From NCBI RefSeq assembly GCF_058153355.1, contig NZ_CM177019.1: a DNA stretch of 64,000 nt; one strand, written 5' to 3'. Numbering within the stretch: the first letter of the stretch is position 1; each line of letters starts with the position of its first letter. The position numbers were made by a program, and so were the translations under genes. Positions 5,133 to 30,043 of the stretch are shown piece after piece. Under the pieces are notes generated by a model. It was not told the DNA's origin. It ran no database searches and saw nothing but the letters and a program-made list of their open reading frames with translations.

Positions 5133-5724
5133 ATATCAATACGGTTCTGGCGAGCCGCTTACCTATAAGGAGCATTGTGAGTGCCTTATCCTTCTGAGTA
5201 GAAAATCATAGATAGGATAATCCTTAAAAATCACAAATAACTTAACTAATGCTTTGAGAATGATGACGGATCCGTCAGTAAGTCATCAATCGACAATCAC
5301 CACGCAATCATGCTTCTCTGACATTTTATCGGAGAAGCAATGCCTCTTTGTCTCAGTGCTATCCCCCCTTTTAAAGGGCAGATTTCAGTCGCCAATACAA
5401 CACATTTTTAAATACACTTTAACCTGGTTCATTATTACACATCTAAAACATCACAAAAATATCACTTCACACGCTATCGGAGAACATCATAACTTTTTAA
5501 AATCAGCGCTTTTTGATAGTTGTTAATGTTTTCCTTTACGATACTATCACTGCCCTTTTTTTATACACAAATATTACCGGGTGGAAATGAAAGGGAAGTT
5601 AAAGGTAATTATATCAGGAAGATATGACGCATTGTGTTTATTTCCGCGTAGAAGAAAATCCATTCCTGCTCTAATTCTCCGATTTGCAAAAATTTAGCGA
5701 AATAGATGAACAATAAGGAATGTT

Positions 5725-6948
5725 ATGTCAATTGACTTTACCCCAGGTATGATAAATACATATCACGGCGATATTTATAACCGCACAACAGATACCGACA
5801 ATATTAAAACACCAAACACACCGATGTGGCCTTGTGATAATCAGGAAGAACAGCAACCCATTAATTTTTCATTGTCTGAAGAAGGATATAACGCTGAACA
5901 ATTTGATTTAGCGCAACAACAACTCCAACAAATTAATGCGTGCCACACGAACACCACATATACAAATGCAGACTACTCAAAAGTTGTGGCTCAACTTGTA
6001 AAACTTATTAATAACATTGAAACGATAAGTTCGACACCACTTACGCAACAGACACAATCAATACTTAATCAGATTAATAACATTAGATACGAAAAGAATA
6101 AAAACTCTGAATCTGAAATCATTGTTGTCTTTAATCCTAAGCCCAATAAGCCAATCATAACTAAAATTCTCGTAGAAGAGGGAATACCAGTAAGATTCAG
6201 TGTCCAAACCGTTTCTTCCGAAAATAAAAATTTTTCTGGGCAACGAACTGATTTACCAACTGATATAAAAGATATTCAACGCTTGTACCAAAAAATGACA
6301 AGGTTGTATATTGAGCACAGTAAAAATGAAAACAGGATGAAAGTCTTTGCTGGAACCAACTTTATTGATTTCAATATGACAGGACAGGACCTGTCCGGGT
6401 TCGTTCTAACCTTGTCAAGGTTTTATTTCGAAGATCTACTTAATGTAAACTTCACTGACGCAAATTTATTTGATACTATTTTTTCACATAAGGAAAACCC
6501 TATCACAAAATTACATAAAGATGAACAATATGTTGACAAACAAATCAATGGGTTATTTTCAACATTATTAACCATTAATGACAACTCTTTAAGAGCAAAA
6601 GCGGAAATTGCTTCGATAATAATAGAATTATTAGAAACCAAGGTAAATAATCTTTCATACAACGACATAATAAAATATCAGAAAGAATTCCAAAAAGAAT
6701 GTTACAAGCAAGTTAAATATTTTACAACACCCTCTCGATACAATAGAATTAAAAAATGGGCACAAATGTCTGAATATCAATTCGAAATATTTCAACACGA
6801 TACGTTTCATCCTAAAAAAATGTCATACGCACCTTATTTAAAGAGATCGCTACCTGATGAAAAAACTATAAATTATGGGGTGGAAATAGAAATACCAACT
6901 GGCAAAAGAATTCGCTTATCAAATCATTACCAGAATATAATCCCATAA
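5725..6948 (+). CDS. yhiS: YhiS-like uncharacterized protein with a pentapeptide-repeat segment (intact, 407 aa)
   Basis: ORF 5725..6948; visibly AT-rich. Residues ...[45 protein letters not shown] form nine consecutive pentapeptide repeats with a hydrophobic third position. Sits immediately upstream of slp, where yhiS lies in K-12. Confidence 0.6.
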
Positions 6949-7193
6949 TATTGAACATTAGCGCTTTATAAGCATTGAATAAAAATAGATTTTATGTACC
7001 TTTAAAAAAAGGCTATCTTATGGGGCGATGGATACTCATGTCACGCCCCAAAATTAACAGAATTAAACTAAACAGAATGGATATAAACATCAGACAGGTT
7101 TACGTTACTATCAGGCATATCGCCTCAGAATCAGATGAAAACTATAAAGAAATATCTATTATGGTTTTAATATTTGTTGATAAGGATAGTAAC

Positions 7194-7760
7194 ATGAACA
7201 TGACAAAAGGTGCACTCATCCTCAGCCTTTCATTTTTGCTTGCCGCATGTAGTTCAATTCCGCAAAATATCAAAGGCAATAACCAACCTGATATTCAAAA
7301 AAGTTTTGTTGCTGTTCATAACCAGCCGGGGTTATATGTTGGTCAACAAGCGCGCTTTGGCGGGAAGGTTATCAACGTTATCAATGGCAAAACGGATACG
7401 TTGTTAGAAATCGCTGTATTACCGTTGGATAGCTATGCGAAGCCTGATATTGAAGCCAACTATCAGGGCCGACTGCTTGCCAGACAAAGCGGCTTCCTTG
7501 ATCCAGTGAACTATCGTAATCACTTTGTTACCATCCTCGGTACCATTCAGGGTGAACAACCTGGCTTTATCAATAAAGTCCCGTATAACTTCCTGGAAGT
7601 GAATATGCAGGGCATCCAGGTGTGGCATTTGAGAGAAGTGGTTAATACCACCTATAACCTGTGGGATTACGGCTATGGTGCATTCTGGCCGGAACCGGGC
7701 TGGGGCGCGCCTTACTACACCAATGCGGTGAGTCAAGTAACACCTGAGCTGGTCAAATAA
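7194..7760 (+). CDS. slp: Starvation-inducible outer-membrane lipoprotein Slp (188 aa)
   Basis: ORF 6975..7760 trimmed to MNMTKGALILSLSFLLAACSS (lipobox LAAC); sequence and synteny match Slp. Confidence 0.9.
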   Translation: MNMTKGALILSLSFLLAACSSIPQNIKGNNQPDIQKSFVAVHNQPGLYVGQQARFGGKVINVINGKTDTLLEIAVLPLDSYAKPDIEANYQGRLLARQSGFLDPVNYRNHFVTILGTIQGEQPGFINKVPYNFLEVNMQGIQVWHLREVVNTTYNLWDYGYGAFWPEPGWGAPYYTNAVSQVTPELVK

Positions 7761-7771
7761 CACCACCGAGA

Positions 7772-7800
7772 GATGCAGATGCTTTCTCAGCATCTGCATC
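7772..7800 (+). terminator. Hairpin downstream of slp (12-bp perfect stem, 5-nt loop)
   Basis: gatgcagatgct-ttctc-agcatctgcatc; no clear U-tract, so Rho-independent function is uncertain. Confidence 0.4.
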
Positions 7801-28065: not shown

Positions 28066-28432
28066 AGTCGGCTTAATATTACATAAACATATTACTGTTT
28101 ATTAATGTAGCACGCCGCCCTCTTAAGTCAAATTGATTGATAAATAAATTTAAACGAAGCGGGAAAACAGGATGATGATGTGTGATGATAGTCGGGCTGG
28201 ATAACTGGATTTATAATACAAAAAAGGCGTTAAAAACGCAGAGGAATTATTAGTAAGCAAATAATCCCTTATTGTGATATTAAACGGTCTCGCCACCCTT
28301 AATAACATTCATATAACATATATCTTATCAACACGATGAATAAACAGCCAATATATTATTGCATGAATAAGTAACCGAATGCCCCACCTGTTTTTTAAGG
28401 TCGGGGCATTCGGTTTTTACAAAATTATGTTA

Positions 28433-29833
28433 TCAGGTGTGTTTAAAGCTGTTCTGCTGGGCTATACCCTGCAGTTTCGGGTGATCGCTGAGGTATTTCA
28501 GGGAGGCTTTGTAGTCTTCCAGTAACAGTTCAGCAAAGTCCATTTCGAAGCCACGACGACACATAATACGCATCACCACGATGTCGGTGGCTTCACCGCC
28601 GAGAGTGAAGGCCGGAACCTGCCAGCCGCGCAGACGCAGGCGTTCAGAGAGGTCATACAGGGTGTATCCCGGATCTTCACCATCTTTCAGTTTGAAGCAA
28701 ACCGCCGGGATGCCTTCATCCGGGCGACCGGTACAGATGAACTCATACGGCCCCAGTTTGGCGATTTCATCCGCCAGATAAGCGGCAACCTGGTAGGAAG
28801 CGTTCTGTACTTTGGTATAGCCTTCACGACCGAGGCGCAGGAATTCATAATACTGTGCAATCACCTGACCCGCCGGGCGGGAGAAGTTGATGGCGAAAGT
28901 CCCAATCTGACCACCGAGATAGTCAACGTTGAACACCAGTTCCTGCGGCAGCGCTTCTTCATCACGCCAGATAACCCAGCCGCAGCCCAGCGGAGCCAGA
29001 CCGAATTTGTGGCCTGAAGCACTGATCGATTTCACACGAGGCAGGCGGAAGTCCCAGACGATATCCGGGGCGACGAACGGTGCCAGGAAGCCACCACTGG
29101 CGGCGTCGATGTGCATGTCGATGTCGATACCGGTGTCGGCCTGGAATTTATCCAGTGCATCGTGCAGCGGTTGCGGGAATTCATAGTTACCGGTGTAGGT
29201 CACGCCGAAAGTCGGCACCACGCCGATGGTGTTTTCGTCGCAGGCTTCAATCATGCGTTTCGGATCCATAAACAACTGACCGGGGCGCATAGGGATTTCA
29301 CGCAGCTCCACATCCCAGTAACGGGCGAATTTATGCCAGCAGATTTGTACCGGGCCGCACACCAGATTAGGTTTATCCGTTGGCTTGCCTGCGGCTTCCA
29401 TACGCTTGCGCCAACGCCATTTCATCGCCATCCCGCCGAGCATACAGGCCTCGGAAGAGCCAATGGTGTTGGTGCCAACGGCCTGACCGTTTTTTGGCGC
29501 AGGCGCATGCCACAGGTCAGCAACCATGTTTACGCAACGCAGGTCGATAGCTGCAGATTGCGGATATTCTTCTTTGTCGATCCAGTTTTTGTTAATGGAT
29601 AAATCCATCAACTTATGGACATTTTCGTCGTCCCAGGTCTGGCAGAAAGTGGCCAGGTTCTGACGAGCGTTGCCATCAAGATATAATTCGTCATTGATAA
29701 TCTGGAATGCGACATCATCGCGCATTTCGTGCAGCGGAAATCGTTTTGACTCCGCGATAGTAGAAATGGCCTTTGCGCCAAAACGTGAATCGAGTAGTTC
29801 TGAGCGGAAATCCGTTAACAGCTTCTGGTCCAT
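28433..29833 (-). CDS. gadA: Glutamate decarboxylase alpha GadA (466 aa)
   Basis: ORF 28433..29896 trimmed to [21 protein letters not shown]... with an AAGGAG Shine-Dalgarno; called gadA rather than gadB from its position next to gadX. Confidence 0.9.
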
Positions 29834-29912
29834 TTCGAACTCCTTAAATTTATTTGAAGGCAATAAAAAAGTAGGATTTATCCGCAATGGAAGCAAGGCA
29901 TTACAGGCTTAA

Positions 29913-29932
29913 TTTAAATAACAAAATCCTAA
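29913..29932 (-). promoter_or_regulatory. GAD box (GadE/GadX-GadW binding site) upstream of gadA
   Basis: Reverse complement of 29913..29932 is TTAGGATTTTGTTATTTAAA, the 20-bp GAD box consensus, about 80 bp upstream of the gadA ATG. Confidence 0.8.
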
Positions 29933-30043
29933 GCAGAAAAACGACTTTTTATAATATAAACATTTAACATGATAATATTAAAAACAGACTTTATTGTCGT
30001 AATAAAAATCGCCCAAACATTCCTGTTCGGGCGATCAAATTAA

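What the first reader, a model, noticed from the sequence alone, without database searches (positions are those of the whole stretch)
5171..29940. AT-rich acid fitness island, H-NS-silenced type, contrasts with GC-richer chu, IS and bcs DNA
By eye, yhiS, slp-dctR, hdeABD, gadE, gadW, gadX and their intergenic regions are AT-rich with long A/T tracts, whereas chuA-chuV, the IS elements and bcs genes are near 50 percent GC or higher. The chu island is thus a compositionally distinct insert inside an older horizontally acquired, H-NS-controlled island, giving a mosaic of at least three acquisition layers in 30 kb.
Basis: inference. Interest (0 to 1): 0.3.

Follow-up and report, generated by a model that had tools for sequence, protein, structure and literature searches.

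The report
Acid island plus haem locus mosaic

Summary
Between 5.1 and 31.9 kb the GC profile breaks into ten segments, while the next 32 kb form one. AT-rich blocks (yhiS-slp-dctR, yhiD-hdeBA-hdeD-gadE, gadW-gadX, and ccp beyond the stated end) alternate with GC-normal blocks (chu, mdtEF, gadA). 10 of 49 one-kb windows fall below 40% GC, against 0.76% of windows in 200 kb of K-12.

The region is the known acid fitness island (AFI) carrying the chu/shu haem locus between dctR and yhiD. H-NS/StpA silencing of the AT-rich parts is published for K-12.

The layering inference is only partly right.
- chu occupies the same slot in E. albertii and two other non-coli Escherichia genomes, and has diverged about as much as core genes.
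- Each gene's GC is conserved genus-wide. mdtEF and gadA, integral AFI genes, are as GC-normal as chu, so composition does not date chu.
- The chu-less state carries a 38-42 bp spacer that is homologous between K-12, E. whittamii and Escherichia sp. E1V33, so it too is old.
- The later layers I could show are yhiS (E. coli only), the variable ars/ArsP genes, and a nested IS66/IS4 plus a second IS4.

AFI and haem-locus co-localisation is already published (xenoGI 2018, 2023). Whether chu was inserted or lost remains unresolved. Low interest.

The parts
1256..5162 (+). IS66-family element (TnpA, TnpB, transposase) flanked by an 8-bp target duplication CTATAAGG (1248-1255 and 5163-5170). It carries a nested IS4 at 1375-2800 with a 12-bp duplication CTCTCCGGGAAG. 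This is a strain-level layer just left of the finding.
   Evidence: The insertion is absent from the closest E. coli record, L001.
5171..7193 (+). yhiS block, the most AT-rich segment (GC .33). yhiS lies at 5725-6948, is intact at 407 aa, and matches no Pfam or NCBIfam family. It is specific to E. coli, so it is not part of the ancestral island.
   Evidence: Absent from L004-L009 and L014. Present in 5418 of 5426 E. coli genomes, mostly at only 80-90% identity to the window.
7194..8446 (+). slp (7194-7760) and dctR (7916-8446). This is the conserved left arm of the acid fitness island and is moderately AT-rich (.43).
   Evidence: Present in all Escherichia loci examined.
8447..17506 (.). chu/shu haem-uptake segment, 9,060 bp, GC .503. 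It contains chuS 8507-9535 (-), chuA 9584-11566 (-), and chuT, chuW, chuX, chuY, chuU and chuV at 12249-17458 (+). In K-12 an unrelated 38-bp spacer takes its place. It has no flanking repeats, tRNA or integrase.
   Evidence: 2230 of 5426 E. coli genomes carry it. 3179 carry the contiguous chu-less junction.
11564..12248 (.). AT-rich divergent chuA / chuT control region (GC .396). It holds the shuA/chuA 5'UTR thermoregulator (11564-11595, - strand) and two Fur-box-like sites (11856-11874 and 12207-12225).
   Evidence: RF02597, 60.1 bits. (4 strand-matches at 2 sites, 0.02 expected, none elsewhere in the window)..
17510..21148 (.). AT-rich block (GC .39) holding yhiD (-), hdeB (-), hdeA (-), hdeD (+) and gadE (+) with long AT-rich intergenic regions. 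It corresponds to the roughly 5-kb H-NS/StpA-dependent occupancy domain described in K-12.
   Evidence: bioRxiv 10.1101/2024.06.20.599902. PMC2984483.
21266..21337 (+). ES205 / GadF small RNA downstream of gadE.
   Evidence: RF02754, 105 bits. K-12 annotates gadF at the same relative position.
21535..25782 (+). mdtE and mdtF, an RND efflux pump. This is a GC-normal block (.53-.54) inside the island, reported as co-transcribed with gadE in K-12.
   Evidence: GC is conserved in all lineages. PMC3708157 for the gadE-mdtEF operon.
25783..28432 (-). AT-rich regulatory block (GC .40): gadW (26145-26873), the GadY small RNA (27117-27230, + strand), gadX (27241-28065), and the flanking intergenic regions.
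28433..29833 (-). gadA, glutamate decarboxylase. It is GC-normal (.538, GC3 .615) with high codon adaptation (CAI .50). It forms the right end of the classical island.
29834..31845 (-). ccp (yhjA) with very AT-rich flanking intergenic regions (.29 and .40). The AT-rich domain extends here, beyond the finding's end coordinate, and the dinucleotide signature is atypical.
33556..34981 (+). Second IS4 copy, 1426 bp and 100% identical to the nested copy. It has a 12-bp duplication CTTCAGGAGGAG and lies between treF and yhjB.

Best explanation
**What it is.** The interval is the Escherichia acid fitness island (slp to gadA) with the chu/shu haem-uptake locus embedded between dctR and yhiD. To its left lie the E. 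coli-specific orphan gene yhiS and a recent nested IS66/IS4 insertion.

**The mosaic.** AT-rich blocks carry small regulators, chaperones and their long promoter regions: yhiS-slp-dctR, yhiD-hdeBA-hdeD-gadE, gadW-GadY-gadX, and the ccp flanks. They alternate with GC-normal blocks carrying large enzymes and transporters: chu, mdtEF and gadA.

**How it works (inferred from K-12 literature, not shown on this sequence).** The AT-rich blocks are substrates for H-NS/StpA filaments. These keep the acid-resistance genes silent until GadE, GadX, GadW, RpoS, EvgA-YdeO or ArcA counteract them. chu is a self-contained module with its own AT-rich divergent promoter region, two Fur-box-like sites and the shuA/chuA RNA thermometer.

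**How it evolved (shown here by comparison).**
- The mosaic is an old, stable property of each gene, not a stack of three dated insertions.
- The backbone and chu are equally old at this chromosomal site. Both predate the split of E. coli from E. albertii.
- chu-plus and chu-minus are two long-lived alternative alleles of the dctR|yhiD junction. Within E. coli they sit on the same flanking haplotype, at 41% and 59% of complete genomes.
- The layers shown to be later are yhiS (E. coli only), the ars/ArsP genes (variable among species), and the IS66-family and IS4 insertions (strain level, with intact target duplications).

**Left open.** Whether chu entered a chu-less backbone very early, or arrived with it and was later replaced by the spacer allele.
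For: **Identity and anatomy.**. All genes from yhiS to gadA are intact, and the interval is 99.3% identical to the closest E. coli record. The RNA elements GadY, ES205/GadF and the shuA thermoregulator were found, as were the Fur-box-like sites.

**Composition.**

**Age of chu at this site.**
- It sits in the same slot in E. albertii, E69 and SCPM-O-B-8794, and partially in MOD1-EC7003.
- chu dS is comparable with that of core genes.

**Conserved per-gene GC.** Seen across eight other Escherichia loci (K-12 and seven non-coli genomes), including the E. fergusonii copy at 62-93% amino-acid identity.

**Age of the chu-less allele.**
- The K-12 spacer matches the E. whittamii and E1V33 spacers at 24 of 38 positions; 0 of 20000 shuffles reach that. 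That identity implies a distance of about 0.5, close to the flanking synonymous divergence of .65-1.07.
- K-12 flanks are E. coli-type right up to the junction, with no divergent tract.

**Two alleles in E. coli.** 2230 genomes are chu-plus and 3179 carry the K-12-type junction. Together they make 5409 of 5426.

**Later layers.** yhiS. ars/ArsP variability. IS target duplications and two identical IS4 copies.

**No mobility signatures.** No tRNA and no flanking repeats.

**Literature.**
- H-NS/StpA at the island: PMC2984483, bioRxiv 10.64898/2026.02.10.705075, bioRxiv 10.1101/2024.06.20.599902, PMC3708157.
- Same most recent common ancestor for AFI and haem locus: PMC5799925, PMC10362622.
Against: - H-NS binding was not and cannot be measured on this sequence. 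All silencing evidence comes from chu-less K-12.
- Only one genome per non-coli species was available, and I did not verify their species assignments. Within-species polymorphism outside E. coli is therefore unknown.
- dS from the NG86 method is near saturation for the AT-rich genes (.8-1.3). The core calibration rests on only two genes, rlmJ and gor, and gor is itself unusually divergent within E. coli (dS .17).
- The spacer homology rests on 38-42 bp.
- Neither a simple insertion nor a simple deletion explains a clean replacement of 9,060 bp by 38 unrelated bp.
- CAI weights were typed from my memory of the Sharp & Li (1987) table.
Confidence: 0.8

Rival explanations
1. **First reader's model.** An old AT-rich island that is horizontally acquired and H-NS-controlled existed first. 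The GC-richer chu locus was inserted into it later, giving at least three dated layers (AFI, chu, IS/core).
For: - chu-less backbones exist. E. fergusonii has slp-dctR-yhiD-hdeBA-hdeD-gadE-mdtEF-gadW-gadX at a non-syntenic site with very divergent proteins. E. whittamii and E1V33 are chu-less at the syntenic site.
- The chu-less spacer is conserved across species, as an original intergenic region would be.
- ChuA has 84-87% identical relatives in Citrobacter and Pseudocitrobacter, in a different operon layout and context. chu-type genes therefore belong to a separate gene pool native to Enterobacteriaceae.
- In another taxon the same dctR-like|hdeBA slot holds a urease cluster, so the slot accepts cargo.
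Against: - Any insertion must predate the E. albertii split, so the polymorphism within E. coli is not an insertion event.
- Composition cannot carry the argument. mdtEF and gadA are equally GC-normal and are integral to every copy of the island.
- An insertion should leave the 38-42 bp spacer on one side of chu. No convincing remnant is there: the best raw p is .001 over 48 tests, on the opposite strand.
- yhiS is assigned to the wrong layer.
- The published reconstruction favours co-arrival.
Confidence: 0.35
2. **Published model (xenoGI 2018, 2023).** AFI and the haem locus arrived together as one island before the E. albertii split. [quoted passage not shown]
For: - The most recent common ancestor is the same, and the slot is the same in E. 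albertii.
- chu dS is similar to core dS.
- An independent partial deletion exists: MOD1-EC7003 lacks chuTWXYUV.
- E. albertii has lost yhiD next to chu, so deletions do happen here.
Against: - The K-12 state is not a lineage-specific clean deletion. It carries 38 bp that are absent from chu-plus alleles but homologous to the spacer of E. whittamii and E1V33.
- Deletions do not normally create filler that matches another species' intergenic sequence.
- E. fergusonii's divergent backbone lacks chu.
Confidence: 0.35
3. **Recency model.** The AT-richness records recent foreign origin from an AT-rich donor and is now drifting toward the host's GC (amelioration). H-NS silencing is a temporary quarantine.
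For: - The AT-rich genes are extreme outliers, at the 0-3.6th percentile of K-12 gene GC.
- The island is restricted to Escherichia (PMC5799925).
- The yhiS block and ccp have atypical dinucleotide signatures.
Against: - Per-gene GC and GC3 are essentially unchanged across lineages separated by dS of roughly .6 to more than 1.
- hdeA and hdeB are well adapted in codon usage, with CAI .51 and .37 at the 93rd and 72nd percentiles.
- The yhiD-gadE and gadW-gadX blocks are not atypical in dinucleotide signature once base composition is factored out (p=.14 and .30).
- Polarised substitution counts give no W-to-S excess in AT-rich genes. That test is weak and biased.
Confidence: 0.1
4. **Chance or artefact.** The GC variation is ordinary gene-to-gene heterogeneity with no biological meaning.
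For: Intergenic regions are AT-rich everywhere in the window. Some core genes are also below 50% GC (bcsE .486, yhjB .478).
Against: - 10 of 49 windows fall below .40 GC, against 0.76% in 200 kb of K-12 and 0 of 78 in the rest of the window.
- The variance of one-kb GC is 2.5 times the background.
- There are 11 segments in 32 kb against one in the next 32 kb.
Confidence: 0.01

Closest known systems
Acid fitness island of E. coli K-12 (slp-gadA; Hommais et al. 2004; Mates et al. 2007; Tramonti et al. 2008)
   Same: The gene content, order and orientation are the same from slp to gadA. The GadY and GadF small RNAs are present. The position between the ars genes and ccp-treF is the same. Identity to K-12 across the shared parts is 94.6-96.6%, and yhiS lies immediately upstream.
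   Different: - The window carries 9,060 bp of chu between dctR and yhiD where K-12 has a 38-bp spacer.
- yhiS is intact here but disrupted by IS5 in K-12, and its 5' part is only 88% identical.
- An IS66/IS4 composite lies upstream.
shu/chu haem transport locus of Shigella dysenteriae and E. coli O157:H7 (Wyckoff et al. 1998; cited from PMC5799925 and from my own knowledge)
   Same: There are eight genes: chuS-chuA divergent from chuTWXYUV. They lie between yhiF (dctR) and yhiD. The shuA/chuA 5'UTR thermoregulator is present, as are Fur-box-like sites in the divergent promoter region.
   Different: Nothing substantive. Proteins are 99.4-100% identical to the nearest E. coli record.
AFI plus haem locus as one island in Escherichia (xenoGI: Bush et al. 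2018, PMC5799925; xenoGI 3, 2023, PMC10362622)
   Same: - Co-localisation of the two.
- Presence of both in E. albertii.
- yhiD missing in E. albertii.
- A chu-less, non-syntenic AFI in E. fergusonii.

I reproduced all four independently.
   Different: Those papers model the K-12 state as a deletion in the K-12 lineage. Here the chu-less allele carries a spacer homologous to that of E. whittamii and Escherichia sp. E1V33. There is also an independent partial deletion in MOD1-EC7003. The history is therefore more complex than one clean loss.
H-NS xenogeneic silencing of AT-rich islands (Navarre 2006; Lucchini 2006; Oshima 2006; Kahramanoglou 2011, PMC3064808)
   Same: The AT-rich blocks have a high density of A/T tracts. 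Their distribution is restricted to the genus. Published K-12 data show H-NS/StpA occupancy and strong derepression in hns mutants.
   Different: - About half of the island (chu, mdtEF, gadA) is not AT-rich.
- The AT-rich state is ancient and stable rather than a mark of recent arrival.
- There are no mobility signatures.
hemPRSTUV / hmu-type haem operons of Citrobacter and Pseudocitrobacter
   Same: The receptor is 84-87% identical to ChuA. HemS, HemT, HemU and HemV homologues are adjacent.
   Different: They form a single co-directional operon with hemP. No chuW, chuX or chuY was seen in those loci. The chromosomal context is different and no acid-resistance genes are nearby.

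Membership tests
E. coli acid fitness island (AFI) | Gene set and order slp-dctR-yhiD-hdeB-hdeA-hdeD-gadE-mdtE-mdtF-gadW-gadX-gadA | tested here: met
   All twelve genes are intact, in that order and orientation, at 98.5-100% protein identity to an annotated E. coli record. The only interruption is chu between dctR and yhiD.
E. coli acid fitness island (AFI) | Chromosomal position between gor/ars and ccp-treF | tested here: met
   The window aligns collinearly with L001 and with K-12 locus L002 on both sides. The gor-to-treF frame is described in PMC10362622.
E. coli acid fitness island (AFI) | Associated small RNAs (GadY between gadW and gadX; GadF/ES205 after gadE) | tested here: met
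   RF00122 scores 150 bits at 27117-27230. RF02754 scores 105 bits at 21266-21337.
E. coli acid fitness island (AFI) | Repression by H-NS and dependence on RpoS, GadE, GadX and GadW | not testable with these tools
   Known for K-12 only, from the literature. The sequence shows only that the AT-rich substrate is present.
chu/shu haem transport locus | Eight genes: chuS-chuA divergent from chuT-W-X-Y-U-V | tested here: met
   All are intact, at 99.4-100% identity to annotated ChuS, ChuA, ShuT, HutW, HutX, ChuY, ShuU and the ATPase.
chu/shu haem transport locus | Location between dctR (yhiF) and yhiD | tested here: met
   Junctions lie at 8446|8447 and 17506|17507 relative to K-12.
chu/shu haem transport locus | Iron and temperature control elements: Fur boxes and the shuA/chuA 5'UTR thermometer | tested here: met
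   RF02597 scores 60.1 bits against a gathering threshold of 58, at 11564-11595 on the - strand. Two Fur-consensus sites with 2-3 mismatches lie only in the chuA-chuT intergenic region, with 0.02 expected. Their function was not tested.
H-NS-silenced, horizontally acquired (xenogeneic) island | AT content well above the genome average across the island | tested here: inconclusive
   Met for 5155-8446, 17507-21148 and 25783-28432 (GC .33-.43). Not met for chu (.503), mdtEF (.53) or gadA (.54), which together make up about 60% of 5171-29940.
H-NS-silenced, horizontally acquired (xenogeneic) island | Restricted phyletic distribution relative to flanking core genes | tested here: met
   DctR relatives at 63% identity or more come only from Escherichia records where a source is named. 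C. rodentium and S. bongori lack the island between gor and treF according to PMC10362622.
H-NS-silenced, horizontally acquired (xenogeneic) island | Physical H-NS occupancy | not testable with these tools
   ChIP and IPOD-HR data exist only for K-12. No supplementary coordinates were held. I found no data for a chu-plus strain.
Classical integrative genomic or pathogenicity island (for chu, or for the whole AFI) | tRNA-adjacent integration, an integrase, and flanking direct repeats | tested here: not met
   No tRNA in 64 kb. No direct or inverted repeats flank 8447-17506. No integrase among the annotated genes.
IS66 family and IS4 insertion sequences | Family transposase genes, terminal inverted repeats, and target-site duplications of 8 bp (IS66) and 11-13 bp (IS4) | tested here: met
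   NCBIfam transpos_IS66 479 bits, IS66_TnpB 128 bits, IS66 TnpA 87 bits, transpos_IS4_1 304 bits. Ends GTAAGCG...CGCTTAC with the 8-bp duplication CTATAAGG. IS4 ends TAATGCC...GGCATTA with 12-bp duplications.

The most novel reading that the evidence does not exclude
**The reading.** The dctR|yhiD junction is an ancient, possibly trans-species, presence/absence polymorphism. A chu-plus allele is shared by E. albertii, several cryptic-clade genomes and about 41% of complete E. coli genomes. A chu-minus allele carries a conserved 38-42 bp spacer and is shared by E. whittamii, Escherichia sp. E1V33 and about 59% of complete E. coli genomes.

**What it would require.** Both alleles would have persisted, or been exchanged by homologous recombination through the island's conserved arms, since before E. 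coli speciated. Some trade-off would maintain them, for example haem-iron access against a cost of splitting the H-NS-silenced acid-resistance domain.

**Consequence.** chuA, the marker used in Clermont phylogroup typing, would then record an old balanced allele rather than a single gain or loss.
Probability: 0.4. Interest if true: 0.4.

Novelty: already known. Interest (0 to 1): 0.2.

Why it matters
**What is already in the literature.** The AT-rich, H-NS-silenced nature of the acid fitness island, the position of chu between dctR and yhiD, and their co-localisation are all published. The finding adds little.

**What the check adds.**
- It is a caution for composition-based calls of "acquisition layers". 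Here a 20-point GC difference persists inside one operon and across the whole genus, so GC contrast does not order events in time.
- The one piece I did not find in the papers I could read is that the chu-less junction carries a spacer homologous across species. This argues against a simple K-12-lineage deletion.
- If chu presence or absence is an old allelic polymorphism, that bears on how chuA is interpreted in E. coli phylogroup typing. It also raises the question of whether inserting a GC-normal, Fur-regulated module changes H-NS domain continuity over the acid-resistance genes.

Tried and rejected
1. **Mobile-element signatures around chu.** No tRNA, no flanking direct or inverted repeats, no integrase. 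Rejected.
2. **K-12 spacer as a remnant of chu.** 0 matches in the window with up to 3 mismatches. In local alignments of the three spacers to chu-plus junction sequences, the only hit was K-12 against the reverse complement of the left junction. Raw p was .001-.018 over 48 tests, and the other two spacers did not support it. Marginal, so not used.
3. **E. fergusonii spacer as an outgroup to polarise the event.** No detectable homology to either allele. Uninformative.
4. **Conserved terminator hairpin in the chu-less spacers.** Folding was not better than shuffles (z from -0.5 to -1.2). Only the chuV-proximal hairpin at 17465-17489 is strong (z=-3.9).
5. **Polarised substitution spectra to test amelioration.** All classes show S-to-W excess at short range and drift toward .5 at long range. 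These are the known parsimony and mutation-bias artefacts. Inconclusive.
6. **Imported divergent tract next to the junction in K-12.** None seen. Mismatch density is 1-4.5% on both sides.
7. **chu as the older resident of this chromosomal site.** The Citrobacter koseri and Pseudocitrobacter haem loci are hemPRSTUV operons in unrelated contexts. Rejected.
8. **H-NS high-affinity motif TCGATAAATT with up to 2 mismatches.** Most AT-rich blocks give 1.9-3.4 per kb (slp-dctR 1.6) against 1.1 in the background. gadA (2.1) and mdtEF (1.7) are also above background, so the count adds little beyond AT content.
9. **H-NS ChIP coordinates from Kahramanoglou et al.** No supplement is held.
10. **Literature on H-NS at chu.** Nothing relevant found.
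11. **Wyckoff et al. 1998.** Not held.
12. **A further literature search on chuA ancestry and loss across phylogroups.** Nothing relevant.
13. **Source organism of the window.** Not determined. The best complete E. coli RefSeq match is 99.3%, and only 10 genomes reach 99%.

Full report
**1. What is there**

*Closest matches.* Window 5171-29940 aligns in one piece, at 99.3% identity, to ten complete E. coli chromosomes and at about 97% to thousands more.

*Gene order.* I transferred the annotation of the best hit and of K-12 and checked every reading frame in the window. The order is:
- permease (ArsP family), 228-1229
- an insertion at 1256-5162
- yhiS 5725-6948, slp 7194-7760, dctR 7916-8446
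- chuS 8507-9535 (-), chuA 9584-11566 (-), chuT-W-X-Y-U-V 12249-17458
- yhiD 17510-18157 (-), hdeB, hdeA, hdeD 19250-19822, gadE 20621-21148
- mdtE 21535-22644, mdtF 22669-25782
- gadW 26145-26873 (-), gadX 27241-28065 (-), gadA 28433-29833 (-)
- ccp, treF, a second IS4, and then yhjB through the bcs genes

All of these genes are intact.

*RNA and control elements.*
- Rfam finds GadY (27117-27230), ES205/GadF (21266-21337), the shuA/chuA 5'UTR thermoregulator (11564-11595, - strand) and rdlD.
- There is no tRNA in the window.
- Two Fur-box-like sites occur, both in the chuA-chuT intergenic region and nowhere else in 64 kb.

**2.

*GC values.*

| Class | Genes | GC |
|---|---|---|
| AT-rich | yhiS, gadE, hdeB, dctR, gadW, gadX, hdeA, hdeD, yhiD, slp | .325-.459 |
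| AT-rich intergenic | within the island | .29-.41 |
| chu genes | chuS to chuV | .488-.562 |
| GC-normal AFI genes | mdtE, mdtF, gadA | .53-.54 |
| bcs genes | bcsC to bcsG | .46-.575 |
| IS4 transposase gene | both copies | .537 |

*Against an empirical null.* The null is 200 kb of K-12 (analysed).
- One-kb windows there average .515 GC with sd .041, and 0.76% fall below .40.
- In the finding's region 10 of 49 windows fall below .40. In the rest of the window none of 78 does.
- yhiS, hdeB and gadE lie below every one of 167 background ORFs in GC. chu genes lie at the 12th-90th percentile.

*Segmentation.* A likelihood segmentation finds 11 compositional segments in the first 31.9 kb and one segment (GC .527) in the remaining 32 kb.

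*A/T tracts.* Tracts of at least 8 nt are 4-7 times denser in the three main AT-rich blocks than in the background or in chu.

- mdtEF and gadA lie inside the stated interval and are GC-normal.
- The chuA-chuT control region is as AT-rich as the island's own promoters (.396).
- The IS elements and bcs genes lie outside the stated coordinates.
- The AT-rich domain runs on through ccp to about 31.9 kb.
- At synonymous sites chu (GC3 .520) is intermediate between the local core (.597) and the AT-rich genes (.416).
- By dinucleotide signature chu is entirely native. The yhiS block, the IS composite and ccp are atypical.

**3. H-NS**

The sequence can only show that the substrate is there. The experimental evidence is for K-12.
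- The AFI is described as a 15-kb region repressed by H-NS. ChIP shows binding at several loci including hdeABD, and gel shifts show direct control of hdeAB, hdeD, slp and dctR (PMC2984483).
- Genome-wide ChIP is summarised as widespread binding across the island, with strong StpA sites at slp-dctR and yhiS (bioRxiv 10.64898/2026.02.10.705075).
- A roughly 5-kb protein-occupancy domain over hdeAB-yhiD, hdeD, arrS and gadEF disappears in a stpA hns double mutant (bioRxiv 10.1101/2024.06.20.599902).
- A broad H-NS peak on the gadE promoter is displaced by ArcA (PMC3708157).

These regions map onto the AT-rich blocks of the window. I found no H-NS data for a chu-plus strain.

**4. Is chu a later insert in an older island?**

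*The junction in K-12.*
- Relative to K-12, window 8447-17506 (9,060 bp) replaces a 38-bp spacer that lies exactly between the stop codons of dctR and yhiD.
- The spacer has no counterpart in the window.
- The chu segment has no flanking repeats.

*Allele frequencies in E. coli.* Among 5,426 complete E. coli genomes, 2,230 carry the chu-plus arrangement and 3,179 carry the contiguous K-12-type junction. Together these make 5,409, so it is a clean two-allele polymorphism.

*Other Escherichia species.* A scan of one genome per bacterial species, using DctR as the query, returned six non-K-12 Escherichia loci. Their state at the junction is as follows.

| Genome | State at the dctR|yhiD slot |
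|---|---|
| E. albertii | chu present; yhiD missing |
| 'E. coli E69' | chu present |
| 'E. coli SCPM-O-B-8794' | chu present |
| Escherichia sp. MOD1-EC7003 | chuS-chuA kept; chuTWXYUV lost, with ERIC-like repeats at the scar |
| E. whittamii | chu-less |
| Escherichia sp. E1V33 | chu-less |

*Divergence.* Synonymous divergence of chu genes between the window and E. albertii is .37-.75, and .19-.52 to the two other complete chu-plus loci (SCPM-O-B-8794 and E69). The core genes rlmJ and gor give .22-.42. chu has therefore co-diverged with its hosts and predates E. coli.

*The chu-less allele is old too.*
- The K-12 spacer is homologous to the spacer of E. whittamii and E1V33. It matches at 24 of 38 positions, which 0 of 20,000 shuffles reach.
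- The level of divergence matches the synonymous divergence of the flanking genes.
- K-12's flanks are nevertheless E. coli-type right up to the junction, with no imported divergent tract.

*E. fergusonii.* It carries a chu-less copy of the backbone from slp to gadX next to uxuAB. Its proteins are only 62-93% identical to those of the window.

*Composition does not help.* Each gene's GC and GC3 are essentially the same in all nine loci compared (the window and eight others). For example gadE is .33-.34, mdtF .52-.53, chuA .50-.52 and hdeB .39-.44.

*Conclusions from this section.*
- The chu polymorphism within E. coli is not an insertion event.
- chu and the AFI backbone have the same demonstrable age at this site.
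- GC contrast does not order them. It also separates gadE from mdtEF inside one operon and is stable over divergences near saturation.
It does not account for the spacer shared across species.
- The deep polarity is unresolved. I put early insertion into a chu-less backbone at about .35 and co-arrival followed by replacement at about .35. The remainder covers recombinational scenarios that I cannot separate.

**5. The layers that can be shown**

1. **Core frame.** gor lies upstream of the window in related genomes. treF and everything after it form one uniform segment.
2. **Genus-level island.** The slp-dctR arm, chu, and the hdeB-to-gadX arm. gadA is also part of it according to the literature, since my outgroup loci do not reach that far.
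3. **The gor-to-slp interval is a variable spot.** MOD1-EC7003 has nothing between gor and slp. E69 and E. whittamii have arsRBC. E. whittamii and this window have the ArsR-like gene and ArsP permease.
4. **yhiS is found only in E. coli.** It is absent from all seven other loci and present in 5,418 of 5,426 E. coli genomes. The window's allele is only 80-90% identical to the allele in 4,632 of them.
5. **Strain-level IS events.**
   - An IS66-family element with an 8-bp duplication.
   - An IS4 inserted into it with a 12-bp duplication.
   - A second, sequence-identical IS4 between treF and yhjB.

There are therefore more than three layers, but they are not the three that were proposed.

**6. 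How it most likely works**

*Shown here.*
- The anatomy and the composition.
- The conservation of both across the genus.
- The regulatory elements of chu.

*Inferred from K-12 experiments.*
- H-NS/StpA filaments nucleate on the AT-rich blocks and silence slp-dctR, hdeAB-yhiD, hdeD, gadE(-mdtEF) and gadXW. They do so until acid, stationary-phase or anaerobic activators displace them.
- gadA and mdtEF are expressed from promoters lying in the AT-rich DNA.

*Inferred from sequence.* chu is a self-contained, iron- and temperature-controlled module whose own promoter region is AT-rich. It could be a further H-NS target.

*Further indication.* The high codon adaptation of hdeA, hdeB and gadA and the stable composition suggest long residence and maintained AT-richness rather than recent arrival.

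**7. Verdict**

| Question | Verdict |
|---|---|
| Observation | Confirmed |
| Interpretation | Partly supported |
| Novelty | Already known |
| Interest | Low (0.2) |

The only element I did not find in the literature I could read is the cross-species homology of the chu-less spacer. It makes an old two-allele polymorphism plausible (probability about .4).

**Limitations**
- Only one genome per non-coli species was available, and species labels are as given in the record titles.
- The core divergence calibration rests on two genes.
- NG86 dS values are near saturation for the AT-rich genes.
- Background ORFs were called greedily rather than taken from annotation.
- CAI weights were typed from my memory of Sharp & Li (1987).
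- The source organism of the window was not identified.

Noticed in passing
window 1248-5170 and 33544-34993: An IS66-family element (1256-5162, 8-bp target duplication CTATAAGG) has an IS4 (1375-2800, 12-bp duplication) nested in its left end. A second IS4 (33556-34981) between treF and yhjB is 100% identical to the nested copy. This suggests recent IS4 activity in this strain.
   Followed up: yes
window 5163-7193 (yhiS 5725-6948): yhiS is the most AT-rich gene (GC .325, GC3 .29) and matches no Pfam or NCBIfam family. It is absent from all seven non-coli Escherichia loci but nearly universal in E. coli. The window's allele is only 80-90% identical to that of 4,632 genomes, while the neighbouring DNA is about 97% identical. 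That is a deep allelic split in an orphan gene.
   Followed up: partly
window 7194-8446 and 17510-21148 compared with L006-L009: Between Escherichia species the AT-rich AFI genes (slp, dctR, yhiD, hdeB) show synonymous divergence of .6-1.3. That is two to three times the value for chu genes and for the core genes rlmJ and gor (.2-.45). The cause is unknown. Candidates are method bias at low GC, relaxed codon selection, higher mutation in H-NS-bound DNA, or old alleles.
   Followed up: partly
L005 13640-14310 (Escherichia sp. MOD1-EC7003): This genome keeps chuS-chuA and the divergent promoter region but lacks chuTWXYUV. The scar carries ERIC-like palindromic repeat copies and ends within a few bases of the usual right junction. 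It is a natural half-deleted chu locus.
   Followed up: partly
L016 10001-19318 and L017 2596-11913 (unidentified taxon, Logan assemblies): A DctR-like regulator (52% identical) is separated from an hdeB-hdeA pair by a urea transporter, ureDGFECBA and amtB. The slot that holds chu in Escherichia thus holds a different acid-resistance cargo here.
   Followed up: no
L008 19560-19626 (E. albertii): yhiD is missing. chuV is followed directly by hdeB. This agrees with a remark in PMC5799925.
   Followed up: yes
L014 7383-9642 (E. fergusonii) and L018 8474-11983 (Citrobacter koseri): The non-syntenic E. fergusonii AFI lies next to uxuA-uxuB-uxuR. In C. koseri the hemPRSTUV haem operon (receptor 86% identical to ChuA) also lies next to a uxuA gene. 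This may be a coincidence.
   Followed up: no
window 18221-18995 (hdeB, hdeA): Despite very low GC3 (.34), hdeA and hdeB have high codon adaptation indices (.51 and .37, at the 93rd and 72nd percentile of K-12 background ORFs). Low GC3 here reflects preferred A/T-ending codons, not foreign codon usage.
   Followed up: partly
window 21149-21427 (- strand): The 'hypothetical protein' annotated here in RefSeq genomes overlaps the ES205/GadF small RNA on the opposite strand (21266-21337). It is probably a spurious ORF call.
   Followed up: no
window 17465-17489: A strong 10-bp-stem hairpin lies between chuV and yhiD (-17.9 kcal/mol, z=-3.9). On the minus strand it is followed by a T-rich run. It is probably a terminator shared by the convergent genes. 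The chu-less spacers have no comparably stable structure.
   Followed up: partly
window 63603-63824: An ldr-type toxin ORF (63603-63710, - strand) and an rdlD antitoxin RNA (63759-63824, 90 bits) lie at the right end of the window after bcsG.
   Followed up: no
whole window compared with E. coli RefSeq: Only 10 of 5,426 complete E. coli genomes reach 99% identity over the AFI-chu interval (several are from stool in Mali). The rest are at about 97% or less, and synonymous divergence from K-12 is .04-.20. The window comes from an under-sampled lineage. I did not identify the source.
   Followed up: no
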